A stretch of 64,000 nt of DNA from the IMG/VR virus record IMGVR_UViG_3300021962_009794, one strand, 5' to 3'. The notes under the pieces are model-generated. The model ran no database searches. It saw nothing but the letters and a program-made list of their open reading frames with translations, and had not been told where the DNA came from. Both the position numbers and the translations under genes were made by a program. Source of the DNA: a virus. Lineage: Duplodnaviria > Heunggongvirae > Uroviricota > Caudoviricetes. Positions 547 through 63,744 of this stretch are shown here, one piece after another; positions within the stretch are counted from its first letter, which is position 1, and every line of letters starts with the position of its first letter.

Positions 547-554
547 TATATATC
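547..554 (-). promoter_or_regulatory. GATATATA-type promoter-like motif (minus orientation)
   Basis: tatatatc about 20 nt upstream of the minus-strand start at 527; member of a motif recurring upstream of many start codons. Confidence 0.35.
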
Positions 555-557
555 ATC

Positions 558-566
558 GATATAAAT
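558..566 (+). promoter_or_regulatory. GATATAAAT promoter-like motif
   Basis: 10 nt upstream of the ATG at 576; variant of the recurring GATATATA(A/G) element. Confidence 0.3.
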
Positions 567-575
567 TTATACCTT

Positions 576-2120
576 ATGATGAAATATAGTTTCCCAACAT
601 TTTCTGAGAAGCAAGCCCTGATGGAAAACGTCCAGGCTGCTAAGGACTATCTTTTAAAGAGATATGCTTTAGCAAAGAAGATAAAAACCTCCGAGATCGA
701 CGAAGAAACCAAAAAAAAGATACTAGACGATCCTAAATTTAAGGAAATTAAGGACTTAACTGCAAAATTTCCGGGGTACACACCAATGTTCGTGAGATTT
801 AGATTCGATCAAAAAGCTCACATGGAGGAACTAAAAGAGATTTTTGATAATCTAATGAAATATAGACAAACTCTAGGACAGGATTTGTCTATGAACATTA
901 ATGATTATGCTAAAATAGAGCCTACTGAAGATGATATCCGTCCAGGATATGAGGTTTTGGGAGACGACCTTAGAAACATTGAGAGAAAAAGAAAACTAAG
1001 AAAGTTTTACTCTGAACTAACAGGTAAAATGAGAAAGGTTTTTGCAAAAGCAACAGACAAACAAATTGACGACCTTACAGAAATCTCCAACCAATTAGAA
1101 CAGTTGAAAGACAAAGACGGAAAAAATGCTTGGAAAGAATTCACCAAAGGTCTAAAGAAATACGAAGACACCAGAACTTATCCTGAGTATAAGGATGAAA
1201 AGGTGGCTTTCTCGGATATTATTAAAGATGCCTTAGAATTTGTAGAAGGATGGGACCAAGATGAATCTGGATTACTTAAGAAACTTAAGGATCTAGGTCC
1301 AATGGCTGGTATTCTTTATTCTAAAGACGGTTACATCGTGGAATCTGCAAGAACACCGGAAGCTCAAAGAGCAATATGCTCAGACACAACATGGTGTATC
1401 AGAAATGATTCAACATTCTGGACATATGGTGGCGGCAGAGTACAGATTAATATCTATAACGGAAACGTTCCAGTTACCGATATCCATAGCTTAGTTGGAA
1501 TCACAGTTAACCAAGACGGATCGATTCACACTGATGCAACAAGACCTAATAACAGATTAAAAGACAAAAACGGTAACAATTTCAGAACATTAAAAGATGC
1601 GCTAGAAGGACTTGGTTATCCCAAGGATCTAGTTGATACCGTTATGTCTAAGTTCAAAATGGAGTGTGACATTAAGATCGCTCTTGAAAGATACTACAAA
1701 GACGGATCAGGTCTTACTGTTAGAAACATCATCGAATCACTTATCGCAACTTCAAAAGGTTTCTTAGCTGGTGCTATGCCACAGGAAGACTGGGAAAAAA
1801 TCTCTGGATTGGTCGCTCAGATCATCTTCGATGTTAAAGGTCTTAAGAAAAGTGACTTTATGAAAGAGTTTAAACAATACGGTATCTTTAGTGAAGCAAC
1901 ACTAAACGTATTCAACAGACTTATAGGCGACGATTACACCAAAGATGATATCGAGGAGATATTAAAAGCAACCGAAAAAGGAATCGAGGAGATTAAGTAT
2001 GTTTTGGAACTCAATGCAGAAGGAAGCCTACCATTAAAATCCGCCCAAATTGAGAGCATGAAAAATGTGATTAAGGAGGAGGAAAACATAGCCAAAAGAA
2101 TTAAATCTAAATTAAAATGA
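576..2120 (+). CDS. hypothetical protein, tandem paralog A (514 aa)
   Basis: Long ORF sharing two blocks with the next gene: GILYS.DGY.V.S.RT.EAQ...CS...WCI and a C-terminal IIESLI..SK...E.WE.ISG.VA.II...K.DFMKEFK..GIF...NVF...IG.DYTK.DIE.IL block. Confidence 0.8.
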   Translation: MMKYSFPTFSEKQALMENVQAAKDYLLKRYALAKKIKTSEIDEETKKKILDDPKFKEIKDLTAKFPGYTPMFVRFRFDQKAHMEELKEIFDNLMKYRQTLGQDLSMNINDYAKIEPTEDDIRPGYEVLGDDLRNIERKRKLRKFYSELTGKMRKVFAKATDKQIDDLTEISNQLEQLKDKDGKNAWKEFTKGLKKYEDTRTYPEYKDEKVAFSDIIKDALEFVEGWDQDESGLLKKLKDLGPMAGILYSKDGYIVESARTPEAQRAICSDTTWCIRNDSTFWTYGGGRVQINIYNGNVPVTDIHSLVGITVNQDGSIHTDATRPNNRLKDKNGNNFRTLKDALEGLGYPKDLVDTVMSKFKMECDIKIALERYYKDGSGLTVRNIIESLIATSKGFLAGAMPQEDWEKISGLVAQIIFDVKGLKKSDFMKEFKQYGIFSEATLNVFNRLIGDDYTKDDIEEILKATEKGIEEIKYVLELNAEGSLPLKSAQIESMKNVIKEEENIAKRIKSKLK

Positions 2121-3583
2121 GAATAGTACTAGAATCTTTCAGAGTTTGGCTAGATATTCAAAGAATTGACGAAAACATCTCTGCTACTAAAGGTTTTATG
2201 CAGAGTAGATATGCCGAGCAACTTAATAAGAGAGCAAATGAACTAACTCCGGAAGAGAGAGAAGAAGCATTAAGAGACGAGGGCTATTTAAAGATCGTTG
2301 ATCTAACTAAGGGTTACCCCGGATATGCAATGCCATTCATTAAGTTCTATTTTGAACAAGGTGTAACATTAGAACAGCTAGGGGAAATCCTAAACATAGC
2401 AAGGAACGAAAAGCACATACTCCAGCAGTTAAGTAAACCAATAGATCAGTGGGCAAACACTGCAGAAGTGGATGGGCTTACTGGATTCGCTCAATTGACC
2501 AATGAGATTAGTGCTATAAGAAGAGCCAAAGAAGCTAAATGGTTTGTTGATGATATGCCTAGAGAATTAAGAGACAGGTATCGTTCAGCAAGTAAGGATA
2601 AACAGGAAGCATTGAATGATCTAGCTATCGAATTAAAAAAATTGGACGGTAGAATAGTAAAACGCTTAATTGCTAAAATTAAATCCCTGTCAACTTGGCC
2701 TATAGAGGACGTAACTTCTTATGTAGCCAGCTACGTTAAAGGCTACCAAAATTTAGGACTCCAGAAGAAAATGGAGGAATTAGAAAACATCGCTCCGCAA
2801 GCTGGTATTCTTTATTCTGATAGTGGTTATCTGGTAATGAGTATGCGTACCGAGAAAGCACAAAAAGAATTATGCTCTGTTGGAGTTTGGTGTATTAACA
2901 AAGGAAGTTTTTACAACTATGCTGATAAGGGACTTCAGATTAACATTTTCAATTTTTCTTTAGAATCAACCGATCGAATGTATCTCGTCGGAACAACTAT
3001 AACATTCGATGGAAAAGTTACCAATTGTCACGATATAAATAACACCTCGATTCTTAGATCTACCGATCCTAGAAAAAACTATGAAATGCTAGGATATCCG
3101 GAGGATTTGATAGAAGAAGTAATGAACAAATTCGACAGAGAATGCAACATTAAAAAGGCAGTCGATATGTTCTATAAAAGATCAAACGATCTTACTGTTC
3201 AGAAAATAATCGAATCCCTGATAATATCATCTAAAGCTCTAATAGAAGGAACCATTACGGAAAAAGAATGGGAAAATATCTCCGGAATTGTTGCAGAAAT
3301 AATTGCTGAACAGAAGAAGATAACCAAAAATGATTTCATGAAAGAATTCAAAGAAATGGGAATATTCAACCAGGCAGGTTTAAATGTTTTTGATGCTATC
3401 ATCGGAAACGATTACACTAAATCGGACATAGAGGATATATTAGCAAGTACTGAATTTGTCATCGCAGAAATAGAAAATATTCTTAATAGTGGAGGTGGAC
3501 GAAATCAAAAGGATCTCGAAAAGTTCCAAACCGTACTAAAAAACAAAGATGAAATAATAGAAAAAATCAAAGCTAAATTATAA
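2117..3583 (+). CDS. hypothetical protein, tandem paralog B (488 aa)
   Basis: Overlaps the previous stop by 4 nt (ATGA); same conserved blocks as paralog A. Confidence 0.8.
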   Translation: MRIVLESFRVWLDIQRIDENISATKGFMQSRYAEQLNKRANELTPEEREEALRDEGYLKIVDLTKGYPGYAMPFIKFYFEQGVTLEQLGEILNIARNEKHILQQLSKPIDQWANTAEVDGLTGFAQLTNEISAIRRAKEAKWFVDDMPRELRDRYRSASKDKQEALNDLAIELKKLDGRIVKRLIAKIKSLSTWPIEDVTSYVASYVKGYQNLGLQKKMEELENIAPQAGILYSDSGYLVMSMRTEKAQKELCSVGVWCINKGSFYNYADKGLQINIFNFSLESTDRMYLVGTTITFDGKVTNCHDINNTSILRSTDPRKNYEMLGYPEDLIEEVMNKFDRECNIKKAVDMFYKRSNDLTVQKIIESLIISSKALIEGTITEKEWENISGIVAEIIAEQKKITKNDFMKEFKEMGIFNQAGLNVFDAIIGNDYTKSDIEDILASTEFVIAEIENILNSGGGRNQKDLEKFQTVLKNKDEIIEKIKAKL

Positions 3584-3584
3584 T

Positions 3585-4829
3585 ATGGAAAAAGTTTCAA
3601 AATACGACGAATTCATAGGAGAAGCTTATTGGAGCAAATCTTGGTTAAATCCTCCAGGAAGAGATCTAATAGATTCATTCGATGGCAATCTTCCGTCAGC
3701 AAGAGACCTTAAAAGAGGACTTGGGGTAACTGTTCAAAGATTAGATGATCAAAAAATAAGACTCCATATAGCTGGAAGCTCAATGCCTAAAACTGCTATG
3801 TGGGTTAATGAGGACGGAAACTACTGTTCAGAACACTACTCAAGCAAACCTGGATTAGAAACTTACGGTTTTGCCAGCTTTGATACTCCACAAGAACTAT
3901 TCAGACACATCTGGCTTAGAATCGTTAAGAACGGTATACCAGCTTCACTCATAAGTAAGAGAGATGTTAACGAGAAGGTTAATTTTGATGAGATGTATCC
4001 TGCAGGTGAAGAGCTTGATCTTGACGAAATCAGGGAAAGATTAAAACCACTGATGGGTGGGGATCAATTAGCACATCCTTCCAATTCGGAGCTTCTAGAA
4101 CTTGCAACAATGCAAAGATTGATTGAGCTCGACTTCGTGGGAAAAATGGACAGATATTCAGGAAATAAGAGCGTTAGCTTAGTAAGAGACATTTCCAAAG
4201 GCGGTAAAGTTAAATACTACTTCTACCTAAGAGCATTAGAAAGAGCTAAACAGCTTTATGGTGATCTAATTAAAGATCTAGTGGGTGGAGACGCTCACGG
4301 ACAAATGATTCAGAAAACCGACTACGAAACATGGACTGTTACAAACACCCAAAGAATGCCGATCAACTCAGTTAACTTCAGAACAGGCGAAAACACACTA
4401 AGATGTAGATTGGAAGACGTTGAGATGTTTAACGCGATTTTCATTGCTATTGCAAAAAGAACTTTTAAAAGAGCTAAAGGTAGAAAGCTAGACGAGAAAT
4501 TAGTTATACCCGGATGGAGAGCGTCAGCTGATGATAAACAAACAATGGAAGAGCTAAATGATCTTCTAGCAGACTATTTCCATGATGCAGCTGCAGAAGT
4601 GAGCCAAACAGTTTTCTTTGACAAAGAACACGACTCAACAGCAGTACACGAGAATGCTAAAGCAATTCTAATCAAGTACCTTTTAAAAGAAGGGTCAATG
4701 TCAGTTAAGAGCCTAATCACAGGAAACGATAAAATGACTCAGTATGTTGATATGGCAACTAAGATTGAAGACATCGACGGATTAACTAAGAGATTGATCA
4801 ACGTTTCTAGAGCATTAAGATACGTATAA
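3585..4829 (+). CDS. hypothetical protein (414 aa)
   Basis: Uninterrupted ORF tightly packed after the paralog pair. Confidence 0.7.
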   Translation: MEKVSKYDEFIGEAYWSKSWLNPPGRDLIDSFDGNLPSARDLKRGLGVTVQRLDDQKIRLHIAGSSMPKTAMWVNEDGNYCSEHYSSKPGLETYGFASFDTPQELFRHIWLRIVKNGIPASLISKRDVNEKVNFDEMYPAGEELDLDEIRERLKPLMGGDQLAHPSNSELLELATMQRLIELDFVGKMDRYSGNKSVSLVRDISKGGKVKYYFYLRALERAKQLYGDLIKDLVGGDAHGQMIQKTDYETWTVTNTQRMPINSVNFRTGENTLRCRLEDVEMFNAIFIAIAKRTFKRAKGRKLDEKLVIPGWRASADDKQTMEELNDLLADYFHDAAAEVSQTVFFDKEHDSTAVHENAKAILIKYLLKEGSMSVKSLITGNDKMTQYVDMATKIEDIDGLTKRLINVSRALRYV

Positions 4830-4830
4830 T

Positions 4831-5826
4831 ATGAAAGAATTAAAACCGATATCTAATTTTCTATCAGAAAGAAGAAGACAAGACATCTGTTCGGGGTGTG
4901 GAAAAAGTATAGAGGATCAAGAAAAAGAGTGTCCAACATGTGGAGCATTTCCCCATAAAGCATATCACGAAAGAGCAGCAGCCAAAACTTTAGGTATTTC
5001 TAAATGGCTTCAGAATGCTCCCGTTATGCAACCAAATCAAAAATTAAGCGAAAATATAACAAAACCAGAAAATATGAACAACATAATTAAATTCGGTGAA
5101 TTTGTAGAATCAAGAATTCACGAAAGCGAAACAGAATGGGATTTCCTAGACCAAGCTTGCTTAGAAGAAGGTTTAGACGAAATGATAGATGAAATCTTAA
5201 ACGAAGGATTACTTTCCAACCCTTCTGAATTGGCAGGAAAATTAACCTCTATAATGACATCTTCCACTAGCAAGGTATCCAAAGGTATGGGACAAGAATC
5301 GGTAGACCCTAAGTTAGAAGGAATATTAAAAGGATTGAGTAAAGGTATAGCAGAAACAATGTCAAAAGCTGGAGGCAATCCGGGTGAATTCAGAAAGGCA
5401 CTTGCAGGAAACAAAGAAATGAAGAAGATCTCCGACATTTTCACGAACTCTTTGAAAAAGTTAATCGATTCGGCTAAGTCAGATCCCACTGTTTTATTCT
5501 CTAAACAATTCGGTCAAACTCTTGCAGGTCTATACATAGTTCGTAAAGTAGCTAAGGGAGCAATAGCTAAGCAAAATAAGGATTTTGCAGACTCATTTAA
5601 CATGTCGTTATCTAAAGCTGTGAATATGAAATCCGCTACTCCAATGAACATGAAGCCTAAAAAATCATCTACTGCTAAACCTGGTGCTAAACCAGCTGAG
5701 ACTAAAACTGCTGATGCAAAACCGGCTGAGACTAAACCGGAAGCAGCACCACAACCAGCTTCATCGACTTCTTCTACTAGCACAGAAACAACTACAACTA
5801 CCCCAGAGGATAAGAAGACAGCATAA
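4831..5826 (+). CDS. hypothetical protein with N-terminal CxxC...CPxC zinc ribbon and C-terminal AKPAETK / S-T-rich low-complexity tail
   Basis: CSGCGKS...CPTCG motif; KPAETK repeats and STSSTSTETTTTTP tail visible in the translation. Confidence 0.65.
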   Translation: MKELKPISNFLSERRRQDICSGCGKSIEDQEKECPTCGAFPHKAYHERAAAKTLGISKWLQNAPVMQPNQKLSENITKPENMNNIIKFGEFVESRIHESETEWDFLDQACLEEGLDEMIDEILNEGLLSNPSELAGKLTSIMTSSTSKVSKGMGQESVDPKLEGILKGLSKGIAETMSKAGGNPGEFRKALAGNKEMKKISDIFTNSLKKLIDSAKSDPTVLFSKQFGQTLAGLYIVRKVAKGAIAKQNKDFADSFNMSLSKAVNMKSATPMNMKPKKSSTAKPGAKPAETKTADAKPAETKPEAAPQPASSTSSTSTETTTTTPEDKKTA

Positions 5827-21087: not shown

Positions 21088-22118
21088 AAATAATAATCAC
21101 AGGAGGAGCCGGATACATCGGTTCACATACGGCGGTTGAAGCTATCAGAGCAGGACACGAGGTAATTATAATCGATGACCTTTCCAATTCTTCGAGAGAT
21201 TCTATTAATAACATATATAAGGCTTCCGGAAAGATACCTTTATTCTATGAGGCATCGATGTTAAAGAATCCATTAGACATCTACGACCAGATTGGTGAGC
21301 ACGCAAGACATGCAGATGCACTTATACATTTTGCAGCTTTCAAATCTTCACCAGAATCAAAAGAGAATCCGCTTTCTTATTACAGAAACAATGTTGATTC
21401 TCTGATGACTGCGATCAGGCTTTGCGAAATCTTCAGCATAAAGAATTTCATCTTTTCTAGCTCTGCGACAGTTTACGGACATCCTAACTATTTACCGATC
21501 AATGAAGTCCATCCGATATTAAAGGGATCTACTCCTTACGGTTGTTCAAAGATTATGGGAGAATGGATACTGGAAGACTGCACAGCAGTAAAAAATCTAA
21601 AATCTGTAGCTCTAAGATATTTTAATCCAGCAGGAGCAGATCACACATATCTGTTAGGGGAAAGTCCAAAAGGAAAGCCAGGTAATTTGGTACCGATCAT
21701 CACACAGGCAGCTGCTGGGGTTTATGAACAGCCAATCAAAGTTACAGGGGTTGATTACCCAACACCAGATGGATCTGCTATTAGAGATTACATCCACGTA
21801 ACAGATCTAGCCCAAGCACATTTGGCCGCACTGGAGTGGCTAGATAAGCAGGAAATTCACACCTTTGAGACATTCAATATAGGAACAGGTAAAGGCACAT
21901 CTGTTTATGAAATGATAGAAACTTTCGTCATGGACGTTGAGCCAGATCTTATTGTCTGTGAAAAAGCAGATAGAAGACCTGGGGATCCAGCTGAAGTTTG
22001 GTGTGATCCTTCGAAAGCTAAAGAAATTCTAGGATGGGAGGCTAAGCTAACCACCCTTGACATTCTTAAAAGTGCATGGGAATGGGAGAAGAGAGTTGGG
22101 GGTGGCTGGGATATATAA
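21084..22118 (+). CDS. galE: UDP-glucose 4-epimerase / NAD-dependent epimerase
   Basis: MKIIITGGAGYIGSH Rossmann motif; YGCSK catalytic YxxxK; size typical of GalE. Confidence 0.85.
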   Translation: MKIIITGGAGYIGSHTAVEAIRAGHEVIIIDDLSNSSRDSINNIYKASGKIPLFYEASMLKNPLDIYDQIGEHARHADALIHFAAFKSSPESKENPLSYYRNNVDSLMTAIRLCEIFSIKNFIFSSSATVYGHPNYLPINEVHPILKGSTPYGCSKIMGEWILEDCTAVKNLKSVALRYFNPAGADHTYLLGESPKGKPGNLVPIITQAAAGVYEQPIKVTGVDYPTPDGSAIRDYIHVTDLAQAHLAALEWLDKQEIHTFETFNIGTGKGTSVYEMIETFVMDVEPDLIVCEKADRRPGDPAEVWCDPSKAKEILGWEAKLTTLDILKSAWEWEKRVGGGWDI

Positions 22119-23217: not shown

Positions 23218-23226
23218 CTTTTATAT

Positions 23227-23724
23227 ATGGAAAGAAAAAACAATAAACCGAAGAGAAACCAAGTAAAACCGAAAATAGAGCAAAAAAATGACCAAGAGGT
23301 CAGTGATTTAGAGGTAGCTAAAAAGATGCTAAAGATCTACCAAAGTGCAGCAGATAGAAAATTAGAATTTAATTTATCATTTGAATCAGTTAAAAAACTA
23401 CTAAGCTACCAAACCTGCTATTACACCAATAAAAAATTCGAGGAGGAAGGCAACTATTCCAGAAGCTTTGATCGGGTTGACTCGGCTAAAGGCTATGTAG
23501 AAGGAAATGTCGTTGCTTGCACAGTTGATATAAACGGTAAGAAGAGCAACCTATCATTTGAGGAAATAGAGTGCATTTATAAGAAAATATCTCCATTTAA
23601 AGAGAAATCAGCAAAACCAGCAAAAATAGAGGAGTCTTCCGAGGTTACTGAGGTAACCATTATCCCACAAGAAGAGGTCTCCGAGGGATATATAGAGAAT
23701 GCAGAATCACCTACTGAAATATAA
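23227..23724 (+). CDS. hypothetical protein (165 aa)
   Basis: ORF. Confidence 0.5.
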   Translation: MERKNNKPKRNQVKPKIEQKNDQEVSDLEVAKKMLKIYQSAADRKLEFNLSFESVKKLLSYQTCYYTNKKFEEEGNYSRSFDRVDSAKGYVEGNVVACTVDINGKKSNLSFEEIECIYKKISPFKEKSAKPAKIEESSEVTEVTIIPQEEVSEGYIENAESPTEI

Positions 23725-37871: not shown

Positions 37872-38132
37872 TTATATATCTGTTTTTTTAGTGTCCTCAG
37901 ATTTTCCGGTCTTTTTAGCCGAGAATATCTTTTCGATAACGGTTAACCCTAATCCTCCTCCAGCAATTAGCGCTAAAGAATCGTACATAAATTCAGGTGT
38001 AACGAAGTCTTTAGCTTTGAAAGTAGCCACCCATGTTATAGCTATAATGTTAAAAAGGGTAAATAGGGCAGCAAATCTTTTGCTTGATGTGTCGCTTTGT
38101 CCTGAAAGAAGATCCATAAAGAATTTTTTCAT
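37872..38132 (-). CDS. small two-TM membrane protein (holin candidate)
   Basis: MKKFFMDLL... with two hydrophobic helices; start moved to the ATG 21 nt downstream of the promoter motif at 38153-38160. Confidence 0.4.
   Translation of the reverse strand: MKKFFMDLLSGQSDTSSKRFAALFTLFNIIAITWVATFKAKDFVTPEFMYDSLALIAGGGLGLTVIEKIFSAKKTGKSEDTKKTDI
37873..37880 (-). promoter_or_regulatory. GATATATA-type promoter-like motif (minus orientation)
   Basis: 5 nt upstream of the start at 37868; overlaps the stop of the upstream gene. Confidence 0.3.
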
Positions 38133-38152
38133 AGTTGTTTTGGTTTTTCTTC

Positions 38153-38160
38153 TATATATC
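38153..38160 (-). promoter_or_regulatory. GATATATA-type promoter-like motif (minus orientation)
   Basis: 21 nt upstream of the minus-strand ATG at 38132. Confidence 0.35.
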
Positions 38161-38186: not shown

Positions 38187-38195
38187 GATATATAA
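38187..38195 (+). promoter_or_regulatory. GATATATAA promoter-like motif
   Basis: 4 nt upstream of the ATG at 38199; divergent from the minus-strand motif 30 nt away. Confidence 0.35.
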
Positions 38196-43286: not shown

Positions 43287-43289
43287 AGT

Positions 43290-43297
43290 TATATATC
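43290..43297 (-). promoter_or_regulatory. GATATATA-type promoter-like motif (minus orientation)
   Basis: 4 nt upstream of the minus-strand start at 43286. Confidence 0.3.
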
Positions 43298-43732: not shown

Positions 43733-43762
43733 GATATATAGTAAACAAATAATTCAATATAA

Positions 43763-45144: not shown

Positions 45145-45170
45145 ACGAGCTTTATCCGATATATAGGATT

Positions 45171-50456: not shown

Positions 50457-50993
50457 ATGAATAGGGCAGATAAAATAACGGATCTAATGTACGGATGCAA
50501 AGCTAATGATCCAAAAGCCCAAAGAGAACTATACGATCTACTTAGCCGAAAAATGGCAGCATACATTTCAAGATATGTAGATTCAAAAGAAGATGCTGAA
50601 GAAATAGTTAATACGGGATTCTGTAGGGTTTTTCGGAAAATACATCTTTATAGCGGAATAGGGGATTTCGAAGGATGGATTTCTGTTATAATAAAAAGAG
50701 CAGCCATAGATCATCTAAAGCGTAAACTGAAAGCAAGAGAATCGATGAATGTAGTGGAGTTAAAAGAATATGAAAACTTTAAGCATCCAGAAATCGGAGA
50801 TAGCGTGGATTACATCTATAAGAGTATGGAAGGACTACCCAAGAAAACAAAAAGAGTAATGGATCTTTTTATTAGAGGATTTAAGCACAGTGAGATTGGA
50901 GATATAATAGGGATTAGCGAGGGAACATCTAAGTGGCACGTTCACGAGGCCAAAAAGATTATGCTAGGTAGGATAACAAAAAAGGCGGGATAA
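50457..50993 (+). CDS. sigma-70-family (ECF-like) RNA polymerase sigma factor
   Basis: Region 2-like GFCRVFRKIHLY...GWISVIIKRAAIDHLKRK; region 4 HTH GFKHSEIGDIIGISEGTSKWHVHEAKKIM. Confidence 0.65.
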   Translation: MNRADKITDLMYGCKANDPKAQRELYDLLSRKMAAYISRYVDSKEDAEEIVNTGFCRVFRKIHLYSGIGDFEGWISVIIKRAAIDHLKRKLKARESMNVVELKEYENFKHPEIGDSVDYIYKSMEGLPKKTKRVMDLFIRGFKHSEIGDIIGISEGTSKWHVHEAKKIMLGRITKKAG

Positions 50994-52960: not shown

Positions 52961-52976
52961 TAGATTTCTTTTTTTC

Positions 52977-52984
52977 TATATATC
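52977..52984 (-). promoter_or_regulatory. GATATATA-type promoter-like motif (minus orientation)
   Basis: 17 nt upstream of the minus-strand start at 52960. Confidence 0.35.
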
Positions 52985-54159: not shown

Positions 54160-54177
54160 TTTAATATGTTTTTTGTT

Positions 54178-54185
54178 TATATATC
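54178..54185 (-). promoter_or_regulatory. GATATATA-type promoter-like motif (minus orientation)
   Basis: 19 nt upstream of the minus-strand ATG at 54159. Confidence 0.35.
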
Positions 54186-56451: not shown

Positions 56452-56471
56452 GGTTATTCTTTTATTTGCTC

Positions 56472-56479
56472 TATATATC
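56472..56479 (-). promoter_or_regulatory. GATATATA-type promoter-like motif (minus orientation)
   Basis: 21 nt upstream of the minus-strand start at 56451. Confidence 0.35.
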
Positions 56480-56593: not shown

Positions 56594-56601
56594 GATATAT
56601 A
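56594..56601 (+). promoter_or_regulatory. GATATATAG promoter-like motif
   Basis: 5 nt upstream of the ATG at 56606. Confidence 0.35.
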
Positions 56602-56605
56602 GAGT

Positions 56606-59246: not shown

Positions 59247-59252
59247 GTTAAT

Positions 59253-59260
59253 TATATATC
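59253..59260 (-). promoter_or_regulatory. GATATATA-type promoter-like motif (minus orientation)
   Basis: 7 nt upstream of the minus-strand start at 59246. Confidence 0.35.
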
Positions 59261-59261
59261 A

Positions 59262-59286
59262 CAAAAAAAGCAGGGATGAACCTGCT
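59262..59286 (-). terminator. rho-independent terminator (minus strand)
   Basis: gcagg-gatgaa-cctgc hairpin with the T-run on the minus strand (plus-strand A-run 59263-59269); follows minus gene 59309..59899. Confidence 0.65.
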
Positions 59287-59308
59287 CTTTCTATTATGTA
59301 ATTGGGAT

Positions 59309-59899
59309 TTAAAATTTCACTCCAAATTTCTTAACAATGCCATTAAGTTTTGCAAGTTCTTCCTCGTTTAATTCCTCTTTCAACCAATAAGAGAGTTTTG
59401 TTAATCTTAGATTCGGATTCTTCTTATAGAATTCTTCTCTTGCTTTCCAATAAGCCTCTACGTTTCCTGTACCGCCATCTTTTTTCCAGAAATTCATGCT
59501 TGATATAACGTCCTTCATCATAGCAGGAAATATGTTCCATCTATTAGAAACCTGCTTACTGAATGCGTCTACTTTACCTGAGATCAATTCACCAAAGAAA
59601 GCTAAACCAGACCCACCGCCTGAAGAGTAGTTAAAATCAAACAGATCCCAAAGTGCCATAAGCTGAATTAGTTCTGCCTTGGTCTTAATCTTAGAAAAGA
59701 CGGAGAATATTGCATCCTCATCAGTTCCTGTACCTTGCATTGCTTTCCATAAAGTTTTACAGTTTTCTGCTGCCTGCTTTGCCGCCGGATTATCTTTAAT
59801 GTACTTAGCAATAACAGCCACCTTGTTTCTGTTATAAGCATCCTCTAGGATTGGCTCTGAAGAAGAATCGAATGTTTCGTATAATTTAATGTACTTCAT
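59309..59899 (-). CDS. hypothetical protein with MKYIKLYETF propeptide-like N-terminus
   Basis: ORF. Confidence 0.55.
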   Translation of the reverse strand: MKYIKLYETFDSSSEPILEDAYNRNKVAVIAKYIKDNPAAKQAAENCKTLWKAMQGTGTDEDAIFSVFSKIKTKAELIQLMALWDLFDFNYSSGGGSGLAFFGELISGKVDAFSKQVSNRWNIFPAMMKDVISSMNFWKKDGGTGNVEAYWKAREEFYKKNPNLRLTKLSYWLKEELNEEELAKLNGIVKKFGVKF

Positions 59900-59929
59900 T
59901 ATGGTAATTTTTTTATATCCTTATATATT

Positions 59930-60829
59930 TTAAATCATGCCTTTAATTTTGGTATATGTTGATAAAGCTTTGTACTTTCTGATCTCCTCTTGACTTAAAG
60001 CAGGATTGTCCTTGTACATCAGAATTCTATCCTCATCTGGCATGTCAGGCCAAAATTCTTCTAGTGCTTCCGTATATGTTCTTCTTCGACTTCCCCCTCC
60101 TTGATTCATTATCTCTATAATATTTTTTAGAGTGCCTGGAGAAACTGGGTTGTCCCGGCAGAAAATCCCGTTAGTCTTTGGTGCACCTTCTAGAGACACG
60201 ATAAGATTTCTACTACAGTAGATATCCTTCACTACCTCTGGTGCTCCTACTAATGAGGTGAGCTTATTGTCGCTACAGTTCAATGAGCTTAATAGTTCCC
60301 TAGGTGATCCTTCTAAAGTTGTGAGCTTGTTTTCAGATGCGTGAAGAGTATAGTAGACATTCTGGGGTGCTCCTACTAGTGAGGTGAGTTTGTTATTAGA
60401 GCAATCAAAAACTCTAGCAACCTTTTCTGGTGCGCCCTCTAAAGTTTCCAATATATTCACACTGCAATCAAAATCTCCACCAACTTCCCTCGGAGATCCT
60501 ATTAGGTTCTTAAGGGAGTTCTGTGCGCAGATAAAATTCGCACCAACAAAAACGGGTGAGCCAACTAAGGAGGTGAGAGCGTTGGAGCTGCAATCGAAAC
60601 TGCCCTTAATCTCTCCGAATTCTATTCCTTTAAAGTCTCGTAATTTTTGTCCCTGACAGACGAATTTCCCGTAAACATCAACCTTACCTGTTGAAGGATT
60701 ATACTCCCATGATCCATACGCTCCACCCAACACGCCCTTATCAAGCCATCTCATCTGTTCTTTAGTGAACACCTTTCTGATTGGCTCTGATTCGGATTCA
60801 AATACGTGGTATGGTGTAACGTGCTTCAT
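59930..60829 (-). CDS. repeat protein (about 23-aa LTSLEGAP-type leucine-rich-like repeats) with MKHVTPYHVFES N-terminus and conserved C-terminal module
   Basis: Repeats G.P..V.G.F.CS.N.LTSL.GAP; the C-terminal W..MPDEDRILMY...EE.RKYKAL..Y.KIK module is shared with 62015..62554 and 62583..63194. Confidence 0.55.
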   Translation of the reverse strand: MKHVTPYHVFESESEPIRKVFTKEQMRWLDKGVLGGAYGSWEYNPSTGKVDVYGKFVCQGQKLRDFKGIEFGEIKGSFDCSSNALTSLVGSPVFVGANFICAQNSLKNLIGSPREVGGDFDCSVNILETLEGAPEKVARVFDCSNNKLTSLVGAPQNVYYTLHASENKLTTLEGSPRELLSSLNCSDNKLTSLVGAPEVVKDIYCSRNLIVSLEGAPKTNGIFCRDNPVSPGTLKNIIEIMNQGGGSRRRTYTEALEEFWPDMPDEDRILMYKDNPALSQEEIRKYKALSTYTKIKGMI

Positions 60830-60833
60830 AATT

Positions 60834-60841
60834 TATATATC
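60834..60841 (-). promoter_or_regulatory. GATATATA-type promoter-like motif (minus orientation)
   Basis: 5 nt upstream of the minus-strand start at 60829. Confidence 0.35.
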
Positions 60842-60843
60842 CG

Positions 60844-60873
60844 CAAAAAAAGCAGACAAAAGCCTGCTTTTTA
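60844..60873. terminator. bidirectional-looking rho-independent terminator
   Basis: A-run, agcag...ctgct hairpin, TTTTT; follows minus gene 60891..61250. Confidence 0.6.
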
Positions 60874-60890
60874 GATTATGTAATTGATTC

Positions 60891-61250
60891 TTATGCTCTG
60901 TTCTTGATTCTTACAAGCTTATCATAAAGGAATCCTGCCTCGTCTTCAACATTTTGTAGATCTAAAGTCTTACCCTTATAAATAATCTCTGGAGTGTTCT
61001 TGTCGACAAGAAAAGAGTTGTCATTTATCCAAGCAACAATCACACCTGGTTTAATCTCTCTTACGTTACTTACCCAATCCTGCTGGCGAGCAGCTGAGGT
61101 AGCATTATGCAATGTTTCCAAAGATTTTCTGTCTTCTTTATTCTCGAATCCTAGTGCTTTCTTAGCACCGCTAGCAATTCTAGAAAAGAACCCTGCGGGT
61201 TTTTCCATTGGGCCTTCTTTGAAATCTTCGAATAGTTGGAGGTTTTTCAT
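60891..61250 (-). CDS. hypothetical protein with MKNLQLFEDF propeptide-like N-terminus
   Basis: ORF. Confidence 0.5.
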   Translation of the reverse strand: MKNLQLFEDFKEGPMEKPAGFFSRIASGAKKALGFENKEDRKSLETLHNATSAARQQDWVSNVREIKPGVIVAWINDNSFLVDKNTPEIIYKGKTLDLQNVEDEAGFLYDKLVRIKNRA

Positions 61251-61291
61251 TCAGTTCGTAATTTTTTATTCTTTATATATTCCGAACCAGA

Positions 61292-61978
61292 CTATTTCTT
61301 CTCAGTCATAGTAGGAATTGGAGTTCCAACAGGGTAAGGGAATCCTTGTTTAGCTGCTGTTACTGAAGTCTGCCCATTTTTAACAGGAACTGCTATACGT
61401 AAAGGAACTGCAGCTTCATTAAGTGGTCCGTAAACTTTAGCTAACACTATGCCAGTCTCTGTAGTGTCGAAGATCACACCAGGCATGGCAAACATGTTGC
61501 TCTCAGATGTAGCTGGATCTTCCATGTTGATCGTGAATGCTCTGTTCACTGGACTCATCATCTCCCATTGCTTATTTGCAGGGTTGAACTGAGGAATAGT
61601 TGTTGTGGTGTCGAAGTACCAGAATAAACTCCAAACTGTCTTATCACTTCCGTCTGGGGTTTGGAAGGCGGTAGCCACGTTGAAATCTCCCCAAGTACCA
61701 CCACTTCCATACATGGCTAGATTAGAGATAGAAGGTCCGTCAAGTACAGGACAGATAGCGCATCCCTCTTTATATTCAACACCTTGGATAACAATTGTCT
61801 TGCCGGTAGGTACTGCAGCAGATGCTCCACAGAAAGCAAATTTGCCTTTGTGAATTCTAAGCACACCAGCTTCATTCTCTTGTGCAACTTCTATTTGGGT
61901 CTCATGCTTCTTCTCTGAGCATGCTGTAAAGGCAAGCATTGCGGCTGCCATTAGTAATAGTTTTGTTGTTTTCATCAT
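61292..61978 (-). CDS. putative lipoprotein (228 aa)
   Basis: MMKTTKLLLMAAAMLAFTAC signal peptide plus lipobox; promoter motif at 61999-62006. Confidence 0.55.
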   Translation of the reverse strand: MMKTTKLLLMAAAMLAFTACSEKKHETQIEVAQENEAGVLRIHKGKFAFCGASAAVPTGKTIVIQGVEYKEGCAICPVLDGPSISNLAMYGSGGTWGDFNVATAFQTPDGSDKTVWSLFWYFDTTTTIPQFNPANKQWEMMSPVNRAFTINMEDPATSESNMFAMPGVIFDTTETGIVLAKVYGPLNEAAVPLRIAVPVKNGQTSVTAAKQGFPYPVGTPIPTMTEKK

Positions 61979-61998
61979 GGTTTATTATTTTATTACCC

Positions 61999-62006
61999 TA
62001 TATATC
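61999..62006 (-). promoter_or_regulatory. GATATATA-type promoter-like motif (minus orientation)
   Basis: 21 nt upstream of the minus-strand start at 61978. Confidence 0.35.
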
Positions 62007-62014: not shown

Positions 62015-62554
62015 TTAGATCACGTCTTTTATTCTATTGTAGAGTTTAAAAGCTTTCAGCTTTCTCTCCTCTTCGGGACTCACCCATTTTAAATCTGGTG
62101 TATATAAAGCTGCCTTGGTGTTGTCGCTAAGTGATGGCCACACCATCTCCAATGATTTTGGGTCCAGATTTTTCTCAATAGCCTCCATAGCTTCCGCTCT
62201 TTCCTCTTTGAAGTATTCTCTGTTCTCCTCCCATATATCATCCTCTGTTACTTCCTCTCCCGGAGATAAGCCATCACCATGTTCAATCGCATCGCCTATT
62301 AGAACCCCTCTGTTTAGCCACACATCGGTATATCCTGGTCCCTCTTTTGTCAGATCAACGAGTATAGAGAGGTCGGTATTCAAAGTTTCGGCAAATTCAT
62401 CAAGTTCATCGAGAAGATCCTCCGGCGGATCATCACCTTCAATAAACCAGCTCTCCCCTGATAGGGCTTTGATCTTATAGAATATTATAAGATCTTCTTT
62501 ATTAAATTTATCAAATTCGGATTCAAAAACTGTATATGGTGTGACGTGCTTCAT
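62015..62554 (-). CDS. hypothetical acidic protein with MKHVTPYTVFES N-terminus and shared C-terminal module
   Basis: ORF 62015..62650 trimmed to the ATG 6 nt downstream of the promoter motif at 62560-62567; C-terminal W...DLKWVSPEEERKLKAFKLYNRIKDVI. Confidence 0.5.
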   Translation of the reverse strand: MKHVTPYTVFESEFDKFNKEDLIIFYKIKALSGESWFIEGDDPPEDLLDELDEFAETLNTDLSILVDLTKEGPGYTDVWLNRGVLIGDAIEHGDGLSPGEEVTEDDIWEENREYFKEERAEAMEAIEKNLDPKSLEMVWPSLSDNTKAALYTPDLKWVSPEEERKLKAFKLYNRIKDVI

Positions 62555-62559
62555 AGAAC

Positions 62560-62567
62560 TATATATC
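62560..62567 (-). promoter_or_regulatory. GATATATA-type promoter-like motif (minus orientation)
   Basis: 6 nt upstream of the ATG at 62554. Confidence 0.35.
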
Positions 62568-62582
62568 CATGGATAAGGTGCG

Positions 62583-63194
62583 TCATAGCATGTTCTTGAT
62601 GTTGCTATAAAACAGAAAGGCCTCAATCTTTCTTTTCTCCTCGGAACCAATCCAATAAAAATTTGGTCTGTATAAAAGAACCTGATCCTCTATAGGAATC
62701 TCGCTCCATAGAAGTTCAACTGAATCCAGGTAGTTCTGATATAAAAGTCCTCCCATGAGGTGGGCTATTTTGTGAAGAACCTCTTCAGAAACTGGATTCG
62801 TTGAGACCCATAGCGCGCCACCGATCTTCCTGGGTAATCCCTCCAGACTGGTGAGCTGGTTTTTATTAAGGGTTAGATGTCCACCAACCTCACTAGGTGC
62901 GTTCTTCAGAGAGGTGAGGGGGTTGCTGGTGAGATACAGGTGACTCAAGATCTCCCTAGGGAATCCATCCAGAGTGGTGAACAGGTTGTCATCGGCGTTG
63001 AAGTACCCTGTGACCGTTCCAAACCTCACGCCCTTCAGATCTCTCAGACCCTGACGGCTGCAATCGAAATTACCCTTCACGCTCACCAGCCCAGTCGAGG
63101 CATCGTGGCTCAGATTGCCGCTGGTGCAGGAGGAGAGCCAATCAATTTGCTCTCTGCTTAGGACTGGGAGTTGTGGATTAGGAACAGTTCTCAT
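62583..63194 (-). CDS. GC-rich paralog of the 59930..60829 repeat protein, lacking the N-terminal propeptide motif
   Basis: STGLVSVKGNFDCSRQGLRDLKGVRFG, LTSLEG repeats and C-terminal W.EIPIEDQVLLY...EEKRKIEAF.FYSNIKNML match the paralog; start set at M55 of the track ORF; codon usage visibly GC-richer than neighbours. Confidence 0.45.
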   Translation of the reverse strand: MRTVPNPQLPVLSREQIDWLSSCTSGNLSHDASTGLVSVKGNFDCSRQGLRDLKGVRFGTVTGYFNADDNLFTTLDGFPREILSHLYLTSNPLTSLKNAPSEVGGHLTLNKNQLTSLEGLPRKIGGALWVSTNPVSEEVLHKIAHLMGGLLYQNYLDSVELLWSEIPIEDQVLLYRPNFYWIGSEEKRKIEAFLFYSNIKNML

Positions 63195-63346
63195 TGTACA
63201 GCAAATGTAAGAACTGTTTACGGGCGGAAAAAATGAAACCGGGCCTTTTCGGCCCTTTTCCCCAGATGGGCCCGGCCTCCAAATAGATATAGCATATATT
63301 CCGTCTCTTATAGAGCTAGATAGATAGAGAGATACTAAAGAACAGC

Positions 63347-63730
63347 ATGAGCACACAATCGCATATAGACAAGGTAAGCATGAAACCTAATCTACTACCA
63401 TACCCACACCATGTAGCAGCACCTAAGATAGAAGCACTAGATCTATCAACGTTCAATAAGCTACAGGCGCACAAGGTCACTAAGTCGCTACAGAAGAGAG
63501 CAGATGAGATAGCGAGCTTAATGAAGTCCTTACAAGAAGACTATGAGCTCAACCTACAGCTCTACTCGGCAACCAGATCTTTCGAGCCTGTACTAGGGGA
63601 GGTGTATCATCTATATGAGAAGCCAGATGGCACCCAGTTCTTAAGCCTTATAGCTCCCACCGAATGGAAGCAGAAGTACCTGTACTCTGGCACACTTAAC
63701 TCAGATGGCACCTGGAGCAGGGTACAGTAG
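63347..63730 (+). CDS. hypothetical protein (127 aa, GC-richer segment)
   Basis: ORF. Confidence 0.4.
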   Translation: MSTQSHIDKVSMKPNLLPYPHHVAAPKIEALDLSTFNKLQAHKVTKSLQKRADEIASLMKSLQEDYELNLQLYSATRSFEPVLGEVYHLYEKPDGTQFLSLIAPTEWKQKYLYSGTLNSDGTWSRVQ

Positions 63731-63735
63731 TCAAA

Positions 63736-63744
63736 GATATATAG
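63736..63744 (+). promoter_or_regulatory. GATATATAG promoter-like motif
   Basis: 5 nt upstream of the ATG at 63749; shows the phage motif persists in the GC-richer segment. Confidence 0.35.

What the first reader, a model, noticed from the sequence alone, without database searches (positions are those of the whole stretch)
547..63744. Recurrent GATATATA(A/G) element 4-25 nt upstream of start codons on both strands; probable phage late-type promoter
The motif (tatatatc for minus genes) occurs at 547, 558, 6782, 17082, 37873, 38153, 38187, 43290, 52977, 54178, 56472, 56594, 59253, 60834, 61999, 62560 and 63736, with looser copies at about 59913 and 61274. It is always immediately upstream of a start codon and often forms divergent pairs, as at 38153 and 38187. 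In length, AT-content and position it resembles the T4 late promoter TATAAATA, which gp55 recognises without a -35 element. It marks nearly every gene of the propeptide family, consistent with late virion-gene expression.
Basis: seen in the sequence. Interest (0 to 1): 0.6.

Follow-up and report, generated by a model that had tools for sequence, protein, structure and literature searches.

The report
Phage late-type promoter motif GATATATA
A short DNA word, GATATATA, sits just upstream of about a quarter of the genes in this piece of an uncultured giant phage; it is almost certainly a promoter without a -35 element, a variant of the phage T4 late promoter, and it may produce many messenger RNAs with no leader.

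Summary
GATATATA occurs 20 times in the window against about 2-5 expected. All 20 copies point at an ATG that opens an ORF of at least 84 aa, either 4-6 nt or 16-22 nt downstream. It is the best start-associated 8-mer in the window (P = 1e-19). Nothing is conserved upstream, so there is no -35 element. Four copies lie 0-3 nt after a strong terminator hairpin.

The word is kept upstream of matching genes in about 40 related jumbo-phage loci, while flanks and spacer lengths change. There, 78 of 92 unique sites precede a start, and none has a spacing of 8-14 nt. Unrelated viral loci give 2 of 14. A sister clade carries RATAAATA(A), the T4/CBB late consensus, in the same geometry and has no GATATATA.

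Early-looking genes use a different, Bacteroidota-type promoter (TAnnTTTG). Units led by the motif include lysis genes, a virion-like LamG protein and proteins whose N-termini resemble the T4 capsid-targeting peptide.

Best reading: a -35-independent late-class promoter starting at an A 5 nt downstream, which would make roughly a third to a half of its transcripts leaderless. The factor that reads it is not identified. An ECF sigma gene lies in the window, but it is patchy among relatives that carry the motif. No gp55 homologue is in the sequence held. This is a new variant of a known kind.

The parts
546..554 (-). GATATATA(T); ATG of ORF 261-527 (88 aa) 19 nt downstream
   Evidence: conserved upstream of the orthologue in L014-L020
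6782..6790 (+). GATATATAA; 19 nt to ATG of 6809-7510, a GIY-YIG homing endonuclease
   Evidence: the gene is absent from variant contig L008
17081..17089 (-). GATATATAA; 4 nt to ATG of 16499-17077 (192 aa), a lone minus-strand gene among plus-strand genes
22110..22118 (+). GATATATAA, overlapping the stop codon of the epimerase gene; 4 nt to ATG of 22122-22763
23687..23695 (+). GATATATAG inside the 3' end of the Srd-like gene; 4 nt to ATG of 23699-24496
37872..37880 (-). GATATATAA; 4 nt to ATG of 37401-37868. The unit continues through 36826-37395 and the CHAP endolysin-like gene 36008-36817
38152..38160 (-). GATATATAG; 20 nt to ATG of 37872-38132 (86 aa); one half of a divergent pair
38187..38195 (+). 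GATATATAA; 4 nt to ATG of 38199-38633; the other half of the divergent pair
43289..43297 (-). GATATATAA; 6 nt to ATG of 42708-43283 (191 aa), a lone minus-strand gene
43733..43741 (+). GATATATAG directly after a terminator hairpin (-19.4 kcal/mol) and U8 run; 22 nt to ATG of 43763-44140
45158..45166 (+). GATATATAG; 5 nt to ATG of 45171-45851 (226 aa, phrog_5162)
52976..52984 (-). GATATATAG; 16 nt to ATG of 52562-52960, followed by the tyrosinase lipoprotein gene 51112-52548; back to back with a class I promoter for 53062-53469
54177..54185 (-). GATATATAA; 18 nt to ATG of 53536-54159 (207 aa)
56471..56479 (-). GATATATAG one nt after a terminator (-14.6 kcal/mol); 20 nt to ATG of 56101-56451, followed by 55268-56098 and 54186-55268
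56594..56602 (+). GATATATAG; 4 nt to ATG of 56606-57061; divergent from the copy at 56479
59252..59260 (-). GATATATAA 2 nt after a terminator (-16.4 kcal/mol); 6 nt to ATG of 57561-59246 (561 aa, LamG, matches a 'virion structural protein' family), followed by the Rz-like gene 57063-57545
   Evidence: in relative L011 the spacer is 23 nt
60833..60841 (-). GATATATAA 3 nt after a terminator (-13.8 kcal/mol); 4 nt to ATG of 59930-60829 (299 aa)
61998..62006 (-). GATATATAG; 20 nt to ATG of 61292-61978 (lipoprotein-like, 228 aa)
62559..62567 (-). GATATATAG; 5 nt to ATG of 62015-62554 (179 aa)
63736..63744 (+). GATATATAG; 5 nt to the ATG at 63749 (99 aa, Pterin_4a; the gene runs off the window)
558..565 (+). 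One-mismatch copy GATATAAA, 10 nt before the ATG of 576-2120. This is the first of four large ORFs (576-5826); by the same crude pattern three of them (576-2120, 3585-4829, 4831-5826) have capsid-targeting-like N-termini. Function as a promoter is uncertain
59912..59929 (-). Two overlapping-region one-mismatch copies, AATATATA (59922-59929) and GATATAAA (59912-59919), before 59309-59899 (196 aa)
61274..61281 (-). One-mismatch copy AATATATA, 23 nt before the ATG of 60891-61250 (119 aa)
23222..23229 (-). One-mismatch copy CATATATA, 4 nt before the ATG of 22714-23217 (167 aa)
50487..50993 (+). ECF-type sigma factor gene (168 aa, regions 2 and 4), preceded by a host-type TATATTTG box at 50445. It is the only sigma gene in the window and a minority candidate for reading the motif

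Best explanation
GATATATA(R)-N3-A is the core promoter of a second, phage-specific transcription class in a jumbo phage lineage of Bacteroidota. It is a single -10-region element with no -35 partner, and it is a variant of the T4-type late promoter (TATAAATA in T4, ATAAATA in CBB and GAP32, RATAAATA in the sister clade). I infer that the host RNA polymerase core, carrying a phage-encoded late specificity factor, melts this element and starts at the conserved A 5 nt downstream. That factor is most probably a gp55-like minimal sigma encoded outside the window. Where the ATG sits 4-6 nt after the motif (12 of 20 window sites), the mRNA would be leaderless or nearly so. Elsewhere it would have an A-rich leader of about 11-25 nt. 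Early and metabolic genes are served by a separate host sigma-A type promoter (T-run + AYCCSG ... TAnnTTTG), so the two classes make a temporal programme. Shown here: enrichment, orientation, position, the lack of a -35 element, the placement after terminators, conservation across relatives, and the motif switch in the sister clade.
For: The motif occurs 20 times against about 2-5 expected, and all 20 copies are oriented towards a gene start 4-22 nt away; it is the top 8-mer in an unbiased scan, P = 1.3e-19. No position from -50 to -1 carries more than 0.53 bits. Strong terminator hairpins with U-runs end 0-3 nt before the motif at 43733, 56479, 59260 and 60841 (z = -4.7 to -6.2). At 59260 and 60841 only 16-17 nt separate the U-run from the ATG. 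Lone genes on the opposite strand (17089, 43297) and divergent pairs each have their own copy. Across 45 family loci, 78 of 92 unique sites precede a start, with spacings of 3-7 nt (29 sites) or 15-30 nt (49 sites) and none at 8-14 nt; controls give 2 of 14. The motif is kept when the spacer changes from 6 to 23 nt at the LamG gene. It persists in relatives whose helicase is only 63% identical and whose 406-aa protein is only 57% identical to the window's. The fifth base after the 8-mer is A in 31 of 32 long-spacer sites, and in 12 of 16 short-spacer sites (in 11 of them the A of the ATG). In the sister clade, RATAAATA precedes a start at 27 of 31 unique sites, with spacings of 5-6 or 17-31 nt, and GATATATA is absent. 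Motif-led units hold a GH19 endolysin (L007), a CHAP endolysin-like gene, an Rz-like gene, a LamG 'virion structural' protein and proteins with T4-like capsid-targeting N-termini. A distinct host-type promoter class serves the other genes, and sigma-70 type promoters are not enriched. The phage has T4-like marks: Srd-like, Dda, RnlA, endonuclease VII-like and a weak gp23-like hit. Group 2 jumbo phages encode gp55-type and other sigma factors plus gp33 (PMC7824862). CBB and GAP32 have an ATAAATA late motif and a gp55-like gene (PMC5259590).
Against: There are no transcript data, so initiation, start site and timing are all inferred. No gp55 or gp33 homologue was found in the window or in any related locus held (phmmer with T4 gp55; PHROGs at E <= 0.01 on 32 unannotated ORFs; the other ORFs at stricter cut-offs, with the 16 weakest hits not displayed). 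Only about a quarter to a third of a roughly 350-kb genome was readable. Most motif-led genes have no known function. Two copies (22110, 23687) lie inside runs of early-looking genes. The inferred start is one nt closer to the motif than in T4. Leaderless mRNAs are rare in flavobacteria, at 5.5% (PMC9723704).
Confidence: 0.6

Rival explanations
1. It is the same promoter, but the reader is the ECF-type sigma encoded in the window (50487-50993). Host RNA polymerase would make this sigma early from the TATATTTG promoter at 50445, and it would then direct the core enzyme to GATATATA, as gp36 does in phiEco32.
For: It is the only sigma gene in about 100 kb of this phage. It sits behind a host-type promoter box. 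The close relative L011 has both the sigma (76% identical) and the motif. L014 has a 47%-identical sigma and the motif. The sister clade has a very different ECF-like sigma (19-24% identical) and a different motif. There is a precedent for a phage sigma reading a single element (PMC8948821).
Against: Two alignment-based scans of IMG/VR found no such sigma in the 217-373 kb contigs of relatives that do carry the motif. None was found at the syntenic place in 17 related loci. In L014 the gene sits at a different locus, so it behaves as an accessory gene. The protein keeps a full region 4 that closely resembles its bacterial Bacteroidota homologues (40% identical), yet the sites have no -35 element. 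Flavobacterial ECF promoters carry a CGT -10 box (PMC9723704). The phiEco32 sigma lacks region 4, and this one does not.
Confidence: 0.15
2. It is a promoter for a phage-encoded RNA polymerase, either virion-packaged or non-virion, like the short AT-rich promoters of phiKZ- and AR9-type jumbo phages. In that case it could mark an early class rather than a late one.
For: This is a jumbo phage lineage (contigs up to 373 kb). AR9 early promoters are AT-rich (AAATATATATTAT-N6-G) with a fixed start site downstream (PMC5312081). Most of the genome is unseen.
Against: No RNA polymerase subunit domains appear in any of the Pfam-annotated stretches. The phage has host-type promoters, an Srd-like sigma decoy and a sigma gene, which are the marks of phages that use the host enzyme; phiKZ-type group 1 phages have no sigma (PMC7824862). 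Its affinities are with T4 and Rak2-like phages. The sister-clade motif is the T4 late consensus. The target genes include lysis genes.
Confidence: 0.07
3. The motif acts in RNA rather than DNA: as a translation enhancer or operator near the start codon in a phylum without Shine-Dalgarno sequences, or as an RNase processing site.
For: The motif is always close to a start codon. Bacteroidota lack Shine-Dalgarno-based initiation (PMC9723704).
Against: The spacing is bimodal (3-7 or 15-30 nt) and changes between orthologues. Eight invariant bases are typical of a protein-DNA site. The copies directly after terminators, and the copies in front of lone genes on the opposite strand, would have no transcript to act on. 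These sites contain no other candidate promoter. Rfam finds nothing there at gathering score (one weak sub-threshold L10_leader match over the site at 43733).
Confidence: 0.05
4. It is a by-product of AT-rich composition, or of recent duplication of gene cassettes, and has no function of its own.
For: The genome is 38% G+C. Two intergenic cassettes (59.26 and 60.84 kb) and two downstream genes are paralogous.
Against: Shuffles and Markov models expect 2-5 copies, and none of 100 shuffles exceeded 7. Flanking sequences are unrelated at most sites. AT-rich control phage loci show no association with gene starts. The motif is conserved across diverged relatives.
Confidence: 0.01

Closest known systems
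Phage T4 late promoter (TATAAATA at -13 to -6, read by gp55 with gp33 and the gp45 clamp)
   Same: Both are a single 8-bp AT-rich element in the -10 region with no -35 element. In register, 6 of 8 bases are identical. Both lie in front of lysis and virion-type genes and homing endonuclease genes. The phage has other T4-like genes. The sister clade carries the near-canonical RATAAATA.
   Different: The first base is a fixed G and the fifth is T. The inferred start is 5 nt after the element rather than 6. Many sites would give leaderless mRNA. No gp55, gp33 or gp45 has been seen. The host is Bacteroidota.
ATAAATA late motif of Rak2-like jumbo phages CBB and GAP32 (PMC5259590)
   Same: These are jumbo phages with T4-like cores. 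The motif was found the same way, upstream of structural genes, alongside separate host-type promoters and extra sigma genes.
   Different: The consensus differs. The CBB motif is also only predicted. Protein similarity to this lineage is only about 30%.
phiEco32 middle/late promoters (tAATGTAtA) read by the phage sigma gp36 (PMC8948821)
   Same: Both involve a single, highly conserved 9-bp element without a -35 element, a start site a few bp downstream, and a phage-encoded small sigma of the sigma-70/ECF kind made earlier in infection.
   Different: gp36 lacks region 4, whereas the window sigma has it. The sequence, the phage type (a podovirus) and the host are all different.
Bacillus phage SPO1 late promoters (-10 GATATT with -35 CGTTAGA, gp33/gp34); recalled from my own knowledge, not checked here
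   Same: Both have a G-A-T-A-T core in the -10 region read by a phage sigma.
   Different: SPO1 late promoters have a -35 element, and the phages are unrelated.
Bacteroidota sigma-A promoters (-33 TTTG, -7 TAnnTTTG; PMC9723704)
   Same: Same host phylum. This type is present in the window as the other promoter class.
   Different: The GATATATA sites have no TAnnTTTG box.

Membership tests
T4-type late promoter | A single AT-rich 8-bp element near -10 with consensus TATAAATA | tested here: inconclusive
   There is a single 8-bp AT-rich element, but only 6 of 8 bases match T4 and 7 of 8 match the sister-clade RATAAATA. The exact TATAAATA occurs 5 times in the window and was not examined for association with starts; the one GATAAATA next to a start abuts the ATG (spacing 0).
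T4-type late promoter | No -35 element | tested here: met
   No position from -50 to -1 exceeds 0.53 bits over 20 sites. Terminator stems occupy the -35 region at four sites.
T4-type late promoter | Transcription starts about 6 nt downstream of the element | not testable with these tools
   There is only indirect evidence: a conserved A 5 nt downstream (31 of 32 long-spacer sites), and ATGs clustering at 4-6 nt with none at 8-14 nt.
T4-type late promoter | Read by a gp55-type sigma together with gp33 and a sliding clamp | tested here: inconclusive
   No homologue was found in the window or in the loci held, but most of the roughly 350-kb genome could not be read.
T4-type late promoter | Serves late genes (virion, lysis) | tested here: inconclusive
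   The motif-led units include a GH19 endolysin, a CHAP endolysin-like gene, an Rz-like gene, a LamG virion-like protein and proteins with capsid-targeting-like N-termini. Most targets have no known function, and no expression data exist.
phiEco32 gp36-type single-element promoter | A phage sigma lacking region 4 reads one conserved element | tested here: not met
   The window sigma has Sigma70_r4_2 at E = 6e-9, above the curated cut-off. The sequence tAATGTAtA does not match.
ECF sigma promoter | A bipartite promoter: an AAC-type -35 element and a CGT-type -10 element | tested here: not met
   There is no -35 conservation, and the -10 region consists only of A and T after the G.
Bacteroidota sigma-A promoter | A -7 box TAnnTTTG | tested here: not met
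   The box is absent at the motif sites. It is present at a separate set of sites: 5908, 17132, 24921, 39308, 44542, 46163, 47986, 53030 and 63209(-).
phiKZ/AR9 virion-polymerase early promoter | A phage multisubunit RNA polymerase and an extended AT-rich element of 13 nt or more | tested here: inconclusive
   No polymerase domains appear in the annotated stretches. The element is only 8-9 nt long. The full genome was not seen.

The most novel reading that the evidence does not exclude
An ECF sigma factor captured from a Bacteroidota host has been turned into a -35-independent late sigma that reads GATATATA in place of gp55. The promoter is placed so that a large share of late mRNAs are leaderless, a translation route that is rare in this phylum. 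Sister clades would have switched motif (GATATATA versus RATAAATA) together with their sigma.
Probability: 0.12. Interest if true: 0.7.

Novelty: new variant of a known kind. Interest (0 to 1): 0.45.

Why it matters
It supplies a clean, testable promoter model for an uncultured jumbo-phage lineage of freshwater Bacteroidota, a phylum with unusual transcription and translation signals and almost no characterised phage promoters. The motif lets one sort about a quarter of the genes, mostly of unknown function, into a probable late, virion or lysis class from sequence alone. The pair of sister clades (GATATATA versus RATAAATA, same geometry) is a natural experiment in promoter and sigma co-evolution. 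The 4-6 nt spacing predicts abundant leaderless late mRNAs where the host uses them for only about 5% of genes, and a single 5'-end mapping experiment or metatranscriptome could check that.

Tried and rejected
- A near-identity search of the first 20 kb against 50,697 phage records found nothing. tblastn with the helicase and with a 226-aa protein gave only hits of about 30% identity, to Rak2-like and other jumbo phages. There is no cultured relative.
- A single-protein scan of IMG/VR with the sigma found nothing. Scans with two sigma alignments found it in only one related contig.
- A weak 'sigma' hit in L079 looks like a glycosyltransferase from its sequence (not searched) and was discarded.
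- phmmer with T4 gp55, gp45, gp44, gp62, RpbA, gp46 and gp47 against all ORFs held gave only a weak AAA+ match of 46614-47663 to gp44.
- PHROGs found no late sigma or gp33 family at E <= 0.01 in 32 unannotated ORFs or, at stricter cut-offs, in the displayed hits for the other ORFs.
One look-up was wasted on a wrong start codon.
- I considered that the genes next to the sigma (209 aa and 121 aa) might be gp45- or gp33-like. There is no sequence support, and I did not pursue it with structure prediction.
- A literature search for GATATATA with phage and promoter found nothing relevant, and I found nothing on late promoters of T4-like Bacteroidota phages.
- Sigma-70 type promoter scanning shows no enrichment, 51 against 53 expected.
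- Rfam finds only tRNAs at gathering score, and no match at any motif site there; the relaxed scan gave one weak sub-threshold L10_leader match (29.3 bits against 44, E = 0.076) over 43614-43739, which covers the site at 43733 and which I take as chance.

Full report
**What the window is.** The 64-kb window (38% G+C) is densely packed with ORFs and has no near match among 50,697 phage records. The same DNA occurs on 82-85 kb contigs from metagenome assemblies (ENA, JGI and Logan records). Relatives in IMG/VR sit on contigs of 154-373 kb, so this is a jumbo-phage lineage.

It carries several T4-like genes:
- a Dda-like helicase
- an RnlA-type RNA ligase
- an endonuclease VII-like gene
- an Srd-like gene at 23227-23724 (phmmer 3.6e-10 to T4 Srd)
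- a weak gp23-like ORF

Its best, distant protein matches include Rak2-like jumbo phages. Three things point to a Bacteroidota host: the host-type promoters described below, lipoprotein-like signal peptides, and the closest homologues of its sigma gene, which include a Phnomibacter (Chitinophagaceae) protein.

**The observation.** GATATATAR occurs 19 times against 2.05 +/- 1.49 in shuffles. The 8-mer GATATATA occurs 20 times against 3.6-5.0 under Markov models, while TATATATA and GATATATC never occur.

All 20 copies point towards an ATG that opens an ORF of at least 84 aa. The distance from the end of the 8-mer is 4-6 nt at 12 sites and 16-22 nt at 8 sites. A random position has this property 11.4% of the time, giving P = 1.3e-19. 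Among all 8-mers in the window, GATATATA is the one most strongly tied to downstream starts, and the next best are its own overlapping fragments.

One-mismatch forms are rare. Only five look functional:
- AATATATA at 61281(-)
- AATATATA at 59929(-)
- CATATATA at 23229(-)
- GATATAAA at 558(+)
- GATATAAA at 59919(-)

It missed four plus-strand copies, at 22110, 23687, 43733 and 45158.

**Anatomy of the sites.**
- Upstream of the 8-mer nothing is conserved: no position from -50 to -1 exceeds 0.53 bits.
- Downstream, the next base is a purine in 19 of 20 sites.
- The fifth base after the 8-mer is A in 16 of 20 window sites. Over unique sites in the family it is A in 31 of 32 long-spacer sites, and in 12 of 16 short-spacer sites (in 11 of them it is the A of the ATG).
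- At the spacing-4 sites the base before that A is usually a pyrimidine, which fits the usual pyrimidine(-1)/purine(+1) start preference. This is my reading of the listing.

Four copies lie 0-3 nt after a strong hairpin plus U-run: -13.8 to -19.4 kcal/mol, z -4.7 to -6.2, with no shuffle folding as well. At 59260 and 60841 the whole distance from the U-run to the ATG is 16-17 nt, and the motif fills half of it.

Copies also stand in front of lone genes on the opposite strand (17089, 43297) and form divergent pairs (38160/38187, 56479/56594). A gene that follows a terminator, or sits alone on its strand, needs its own promoter, and the motif is the only shared sequence available.

**A second, different promoter class.** Many other intergenic regions share a T-run, then A(T/C)CC(C/G)G, then about 11 nt, then TAnnTTTG, followed by 13-25 nt to the ATG. 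Sites are at 5908, 17132, 24921, 39308, 44542 (before tRNA-Met), 46163, 47986 (before a tRNA cluster), 53030 and 63209(-). Weaker forms lie before 9018, 29668 and the sigma gene.

TAnnTTTG is the -7 box of the Bacteroidota primary sigma (PMC9723704). E. coli-type promoters are not enriched, at 51 against 53 expected. So the phage has a host-type class in front of its metabolism and replication genes, and the GATATATA class in front of another set of genes.

**Conservation in relatives.** A relative with 76% sigma identity (L011/L012) keeps the motif before the orthologous genes. At the LamG gene the terminator stem has changed, and the spacer has grown from 6 to 23 nt, yet TTTTTTTGTGATATATA is intact.

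Relatives fetched with the helicase (63-88% identity) and with a 406-aa membrane protein (57-98% identity) also carry the motif before starts.

| Set of loci | Motif | Unique sites | Sites before a start | Spacings (nt) |
|---|---|---|---|---|
| 45 family loci | GATATATA | 92 | 78 | 3-7 (29 sites), 15-30 (49 sites), none at 8-14 |
| 39 unrelated, mostly AT-rich viral loci and one bacterial locus | GATATATA | 14 | 2 | no pattern |
| Sister clade (6 loci) | RATAAATA | 31 | 27 | 5-6 or 17-31 |

The gap at 8-14 nt is what one expects if the mRNA 5' end is fixed by the motif. The start codon then has to sit either at the 5' end or far enough inside for a ribosome to load. This is an inference.

**A sister clade with the T4 consensus.** A more distant group (L028, L070-L074; 41% G+C) was found through an AAA ATPase (65% identical) and through its own ECF-like sigma. 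It has the same kind of genes, with N-termini such as MKHVKLFESW. It has no GATATATA at all. Instead, (G/A)ATAAATA(A) precedes starts at 27 of 31 unique sites.

That sequence is the T4 late consensus TATAAATA with a relaxed first base, and it matches the ATAAATA motif predicted for late genes of the jumbo phages CBB and GAP32 (PMC5259590). In register, the window motif differs from the sister-clade motif only at the fifth base (T for A) and in its fixed G. This ties GATATATA to the T4 late-promoter family much more firmly than resemblance alone.

**What the motif-led genes are.** Most have no PHROG or Pfam match. Those with a hint are:
- a GH19/PG_binding endolysin just left of the window (L007)
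- a CHAP endolysin-like gene, last in the unit led by 37880
- an Rz-like gene behind the LamG gene
- the 561-aa LamG protein, which matches a 'virion structural protein' family
- a GIY-YIG homing endonuclease that is missing from a variant contig
- two lipoprotein-like genes

Thirteen of 20 motif-led ORFs begin with a peptide like the T4 capsid-targeting sequence: M-K/R-x-aromatic..., ending in [LIVF]xE. Only 13 of 84 other ORFs do, and several of those 13 lie inside motif-led units or behind one-mismatch copies. The comparison with the T4 peptide MKTYQEFIAE and with gp21 cleavage after LxE rests on my own knowledge. Lysis genes and capsid-internal proteins are late functions in T4-like phages, so 'late' is a reasonable label, but it is untested.

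**Who reads it.** The window encodes an ECF-type sigma at 50487-50993, with regions 2 and 4 both above the Pfam cut-offs. It sits behind a host-type box. Apart from copies in this phage and its close relatives (98% and 76%), its nearest homologues are ECF sigmas at 40-46% identity, at least some of them from Bacteroidota bacteria. Several results argue against that:
- A complete, bacterial-like region 4 predicts a -35 element, and none exists.
- Flavobacterial ECF promoters have a CGT -10 box (PMC9723704).
- Two alignment-based scans of IMG/VR found a homologue in only one related contig, at 47% identity and at a different locus. They found none in the 217-373 kb contigs that carry the motif.
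- None was found at the syntenic place in 17 related loci.

The sigma therefore behaves as an accessory gene, while the motif is universal in the lineage. Group 2 jumbo phages encode a minimal gp55-type sigma plus gp33, and often a fuller sigma as well (PMC7824862). CBB has both kinds, and its authors assign the gp55-like one to late transcription (PMC5259590).

By analogy, and given the sister-clade consensus, I think a gp55-like factor encoded elsewhere in the roughly 350-kb genome is the most likely reader. A phage RNA polymerase is less likely: no such domains were seen, and the phage has the marks of one that uses the host enzyme.

**Verdict.** It is a new sequence variant of the T4-type late promoter in an uncultured Bacteroidota jumbo-phage lineage. 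Three points are worth following up: the clean two-class promoter layout, the motif switch between sister clades, and the prediction that a third to a half of these transcripts are leaderless in a phylum where that is rare.

Noticed in passing
window 5908, 17132, 24921, 39308, 44542, 46163, 47986, 53030, 63209(-); weaker at 50445, 8956-9017, 29621-29667: A second promoter class: a T-run, then A(T/C)CC(C/G)G, about 11 nt, then TAnnTTTG (the Bacteroidota sigma-A -7 box), 13-25 nt before starts of metabolism/replication genes and before tRNAs. The strongly conserved upstream box sits where T4 middle promoters carry the MotA box, so it could be an activator site rather than part of a plain early promoter. 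It is also present in relatives without the sigma (L015, L019, L079, L091) and absent from the sister clade and the controls.
   Followed up: partly
window 50487-50993 (+); L014:7194-7694 (-); L028:4164-4709 (+): ECF-type sigma genes are scattered in this phage group. They are 76% identical in L011, 47% identical and at a different locus in L014, and 19-24% identical in the sister clade. None was detected in the 217-373 kb relatives. The window copy has bacterial homologues at up to about 40% identity, including a Phnomibacter (Chitinophagaceae) sigma. Its target promoters are unknown.
   Followed up: partly
window 23227-23724 (+): A homologue of T4 Srd, the postulated decoy of host sigma factors (phmmer 3.6e-10; PHROG 'Srd anti-sigma factor', 2e-22). 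A GATATATA copy lies inside its 3' end.
   Followed up: partly
window-wide, e.g. 59930-60829, 62015-62554, 43763-44140, 38199-38633, 52562-52960, 36008-36817, 576-5826: There is a large set of ORFs, mostly of unknown function, whose first 10-14 residues resemble the T4 capsid-targeting peptide (M-K/R-H-x-x-x-F/Y-x-x-F-E, ending in [LIVF]xE). The same kind of N-terminus is abundant in the sister clade (MKHVKLFESW, MKYIKLFEE).
   Followed up: partly
window 6809-7510 (+): A GIY-YIG homing endonuclease gene with its own GATATATA copy. It is present in contig L007 but absent from the otherwise collinear variant L008.
   Followed up: partly
window 42286-42711, 44568-44643, 48009-48506, 44637-44826: A phage SmpB gene. 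tRNAs at 44568-44643 (Met), 48112-48182 and 48423-48506, of which ARAGORN reported only tRNA-Met; the other two come from Rfam (48423-48506 only in the relaxed scan, at 42.4 bits), which also gives a weak tRNA hit at 48009-48088. A 190-nt unassigned stretch after tRNA-Met ends in a tRNA-like T-arm and acceptor sequence. No tmRNA was called.
   Followed up: partly
window 31068-33819 and 41603-42286: A Band7/SPFH protein (626 aa) is followed by a 296-aa ORF with a weak match to the T4 gp23 major head protein (Pfam Gp23; phrog_138, 1e-7). A ClpP-type 'head maturation protease' lies nearby. None of the three has a GATATATA copy just upstream.
   Followed up: no
window 51112-52548 (-): A tyrosinase-domain protein with a lipoprotein-like signal peptide sits as the second gene of a motif-led unit.
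   Followed up: no
L028, L070-L074: The sister clade (41% G+C) uses RATAAATA(A). It shows E. coli-like extended -10 sequences (TGGTATAAT, TAGTATAAT) before its sigma gene and one other gene, instead of TAnnTTTG. This suggests a host outside Bacteroidota.
   Followed up: partly
window 59261-59300 (-) and 60842-60881 (-): Two near-identical terminator-plus-promoter cassettes (ACATAAT..AGCAGG..CTGCTTTTTTTG.GATATATAA) separate neighbouring genes. This is reminiscent of the mobile regulatory cassettes described in T4-type genomes (recalled from my own knowledge).
   Followed up: no
window 576-2120 and 2117-3583: Two adjacent paralogous large ORFs (514 and 488 aa) of unknown function open a four-gene unit that lies behind only one-mismatch copies of the motif.
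   Followed up: no
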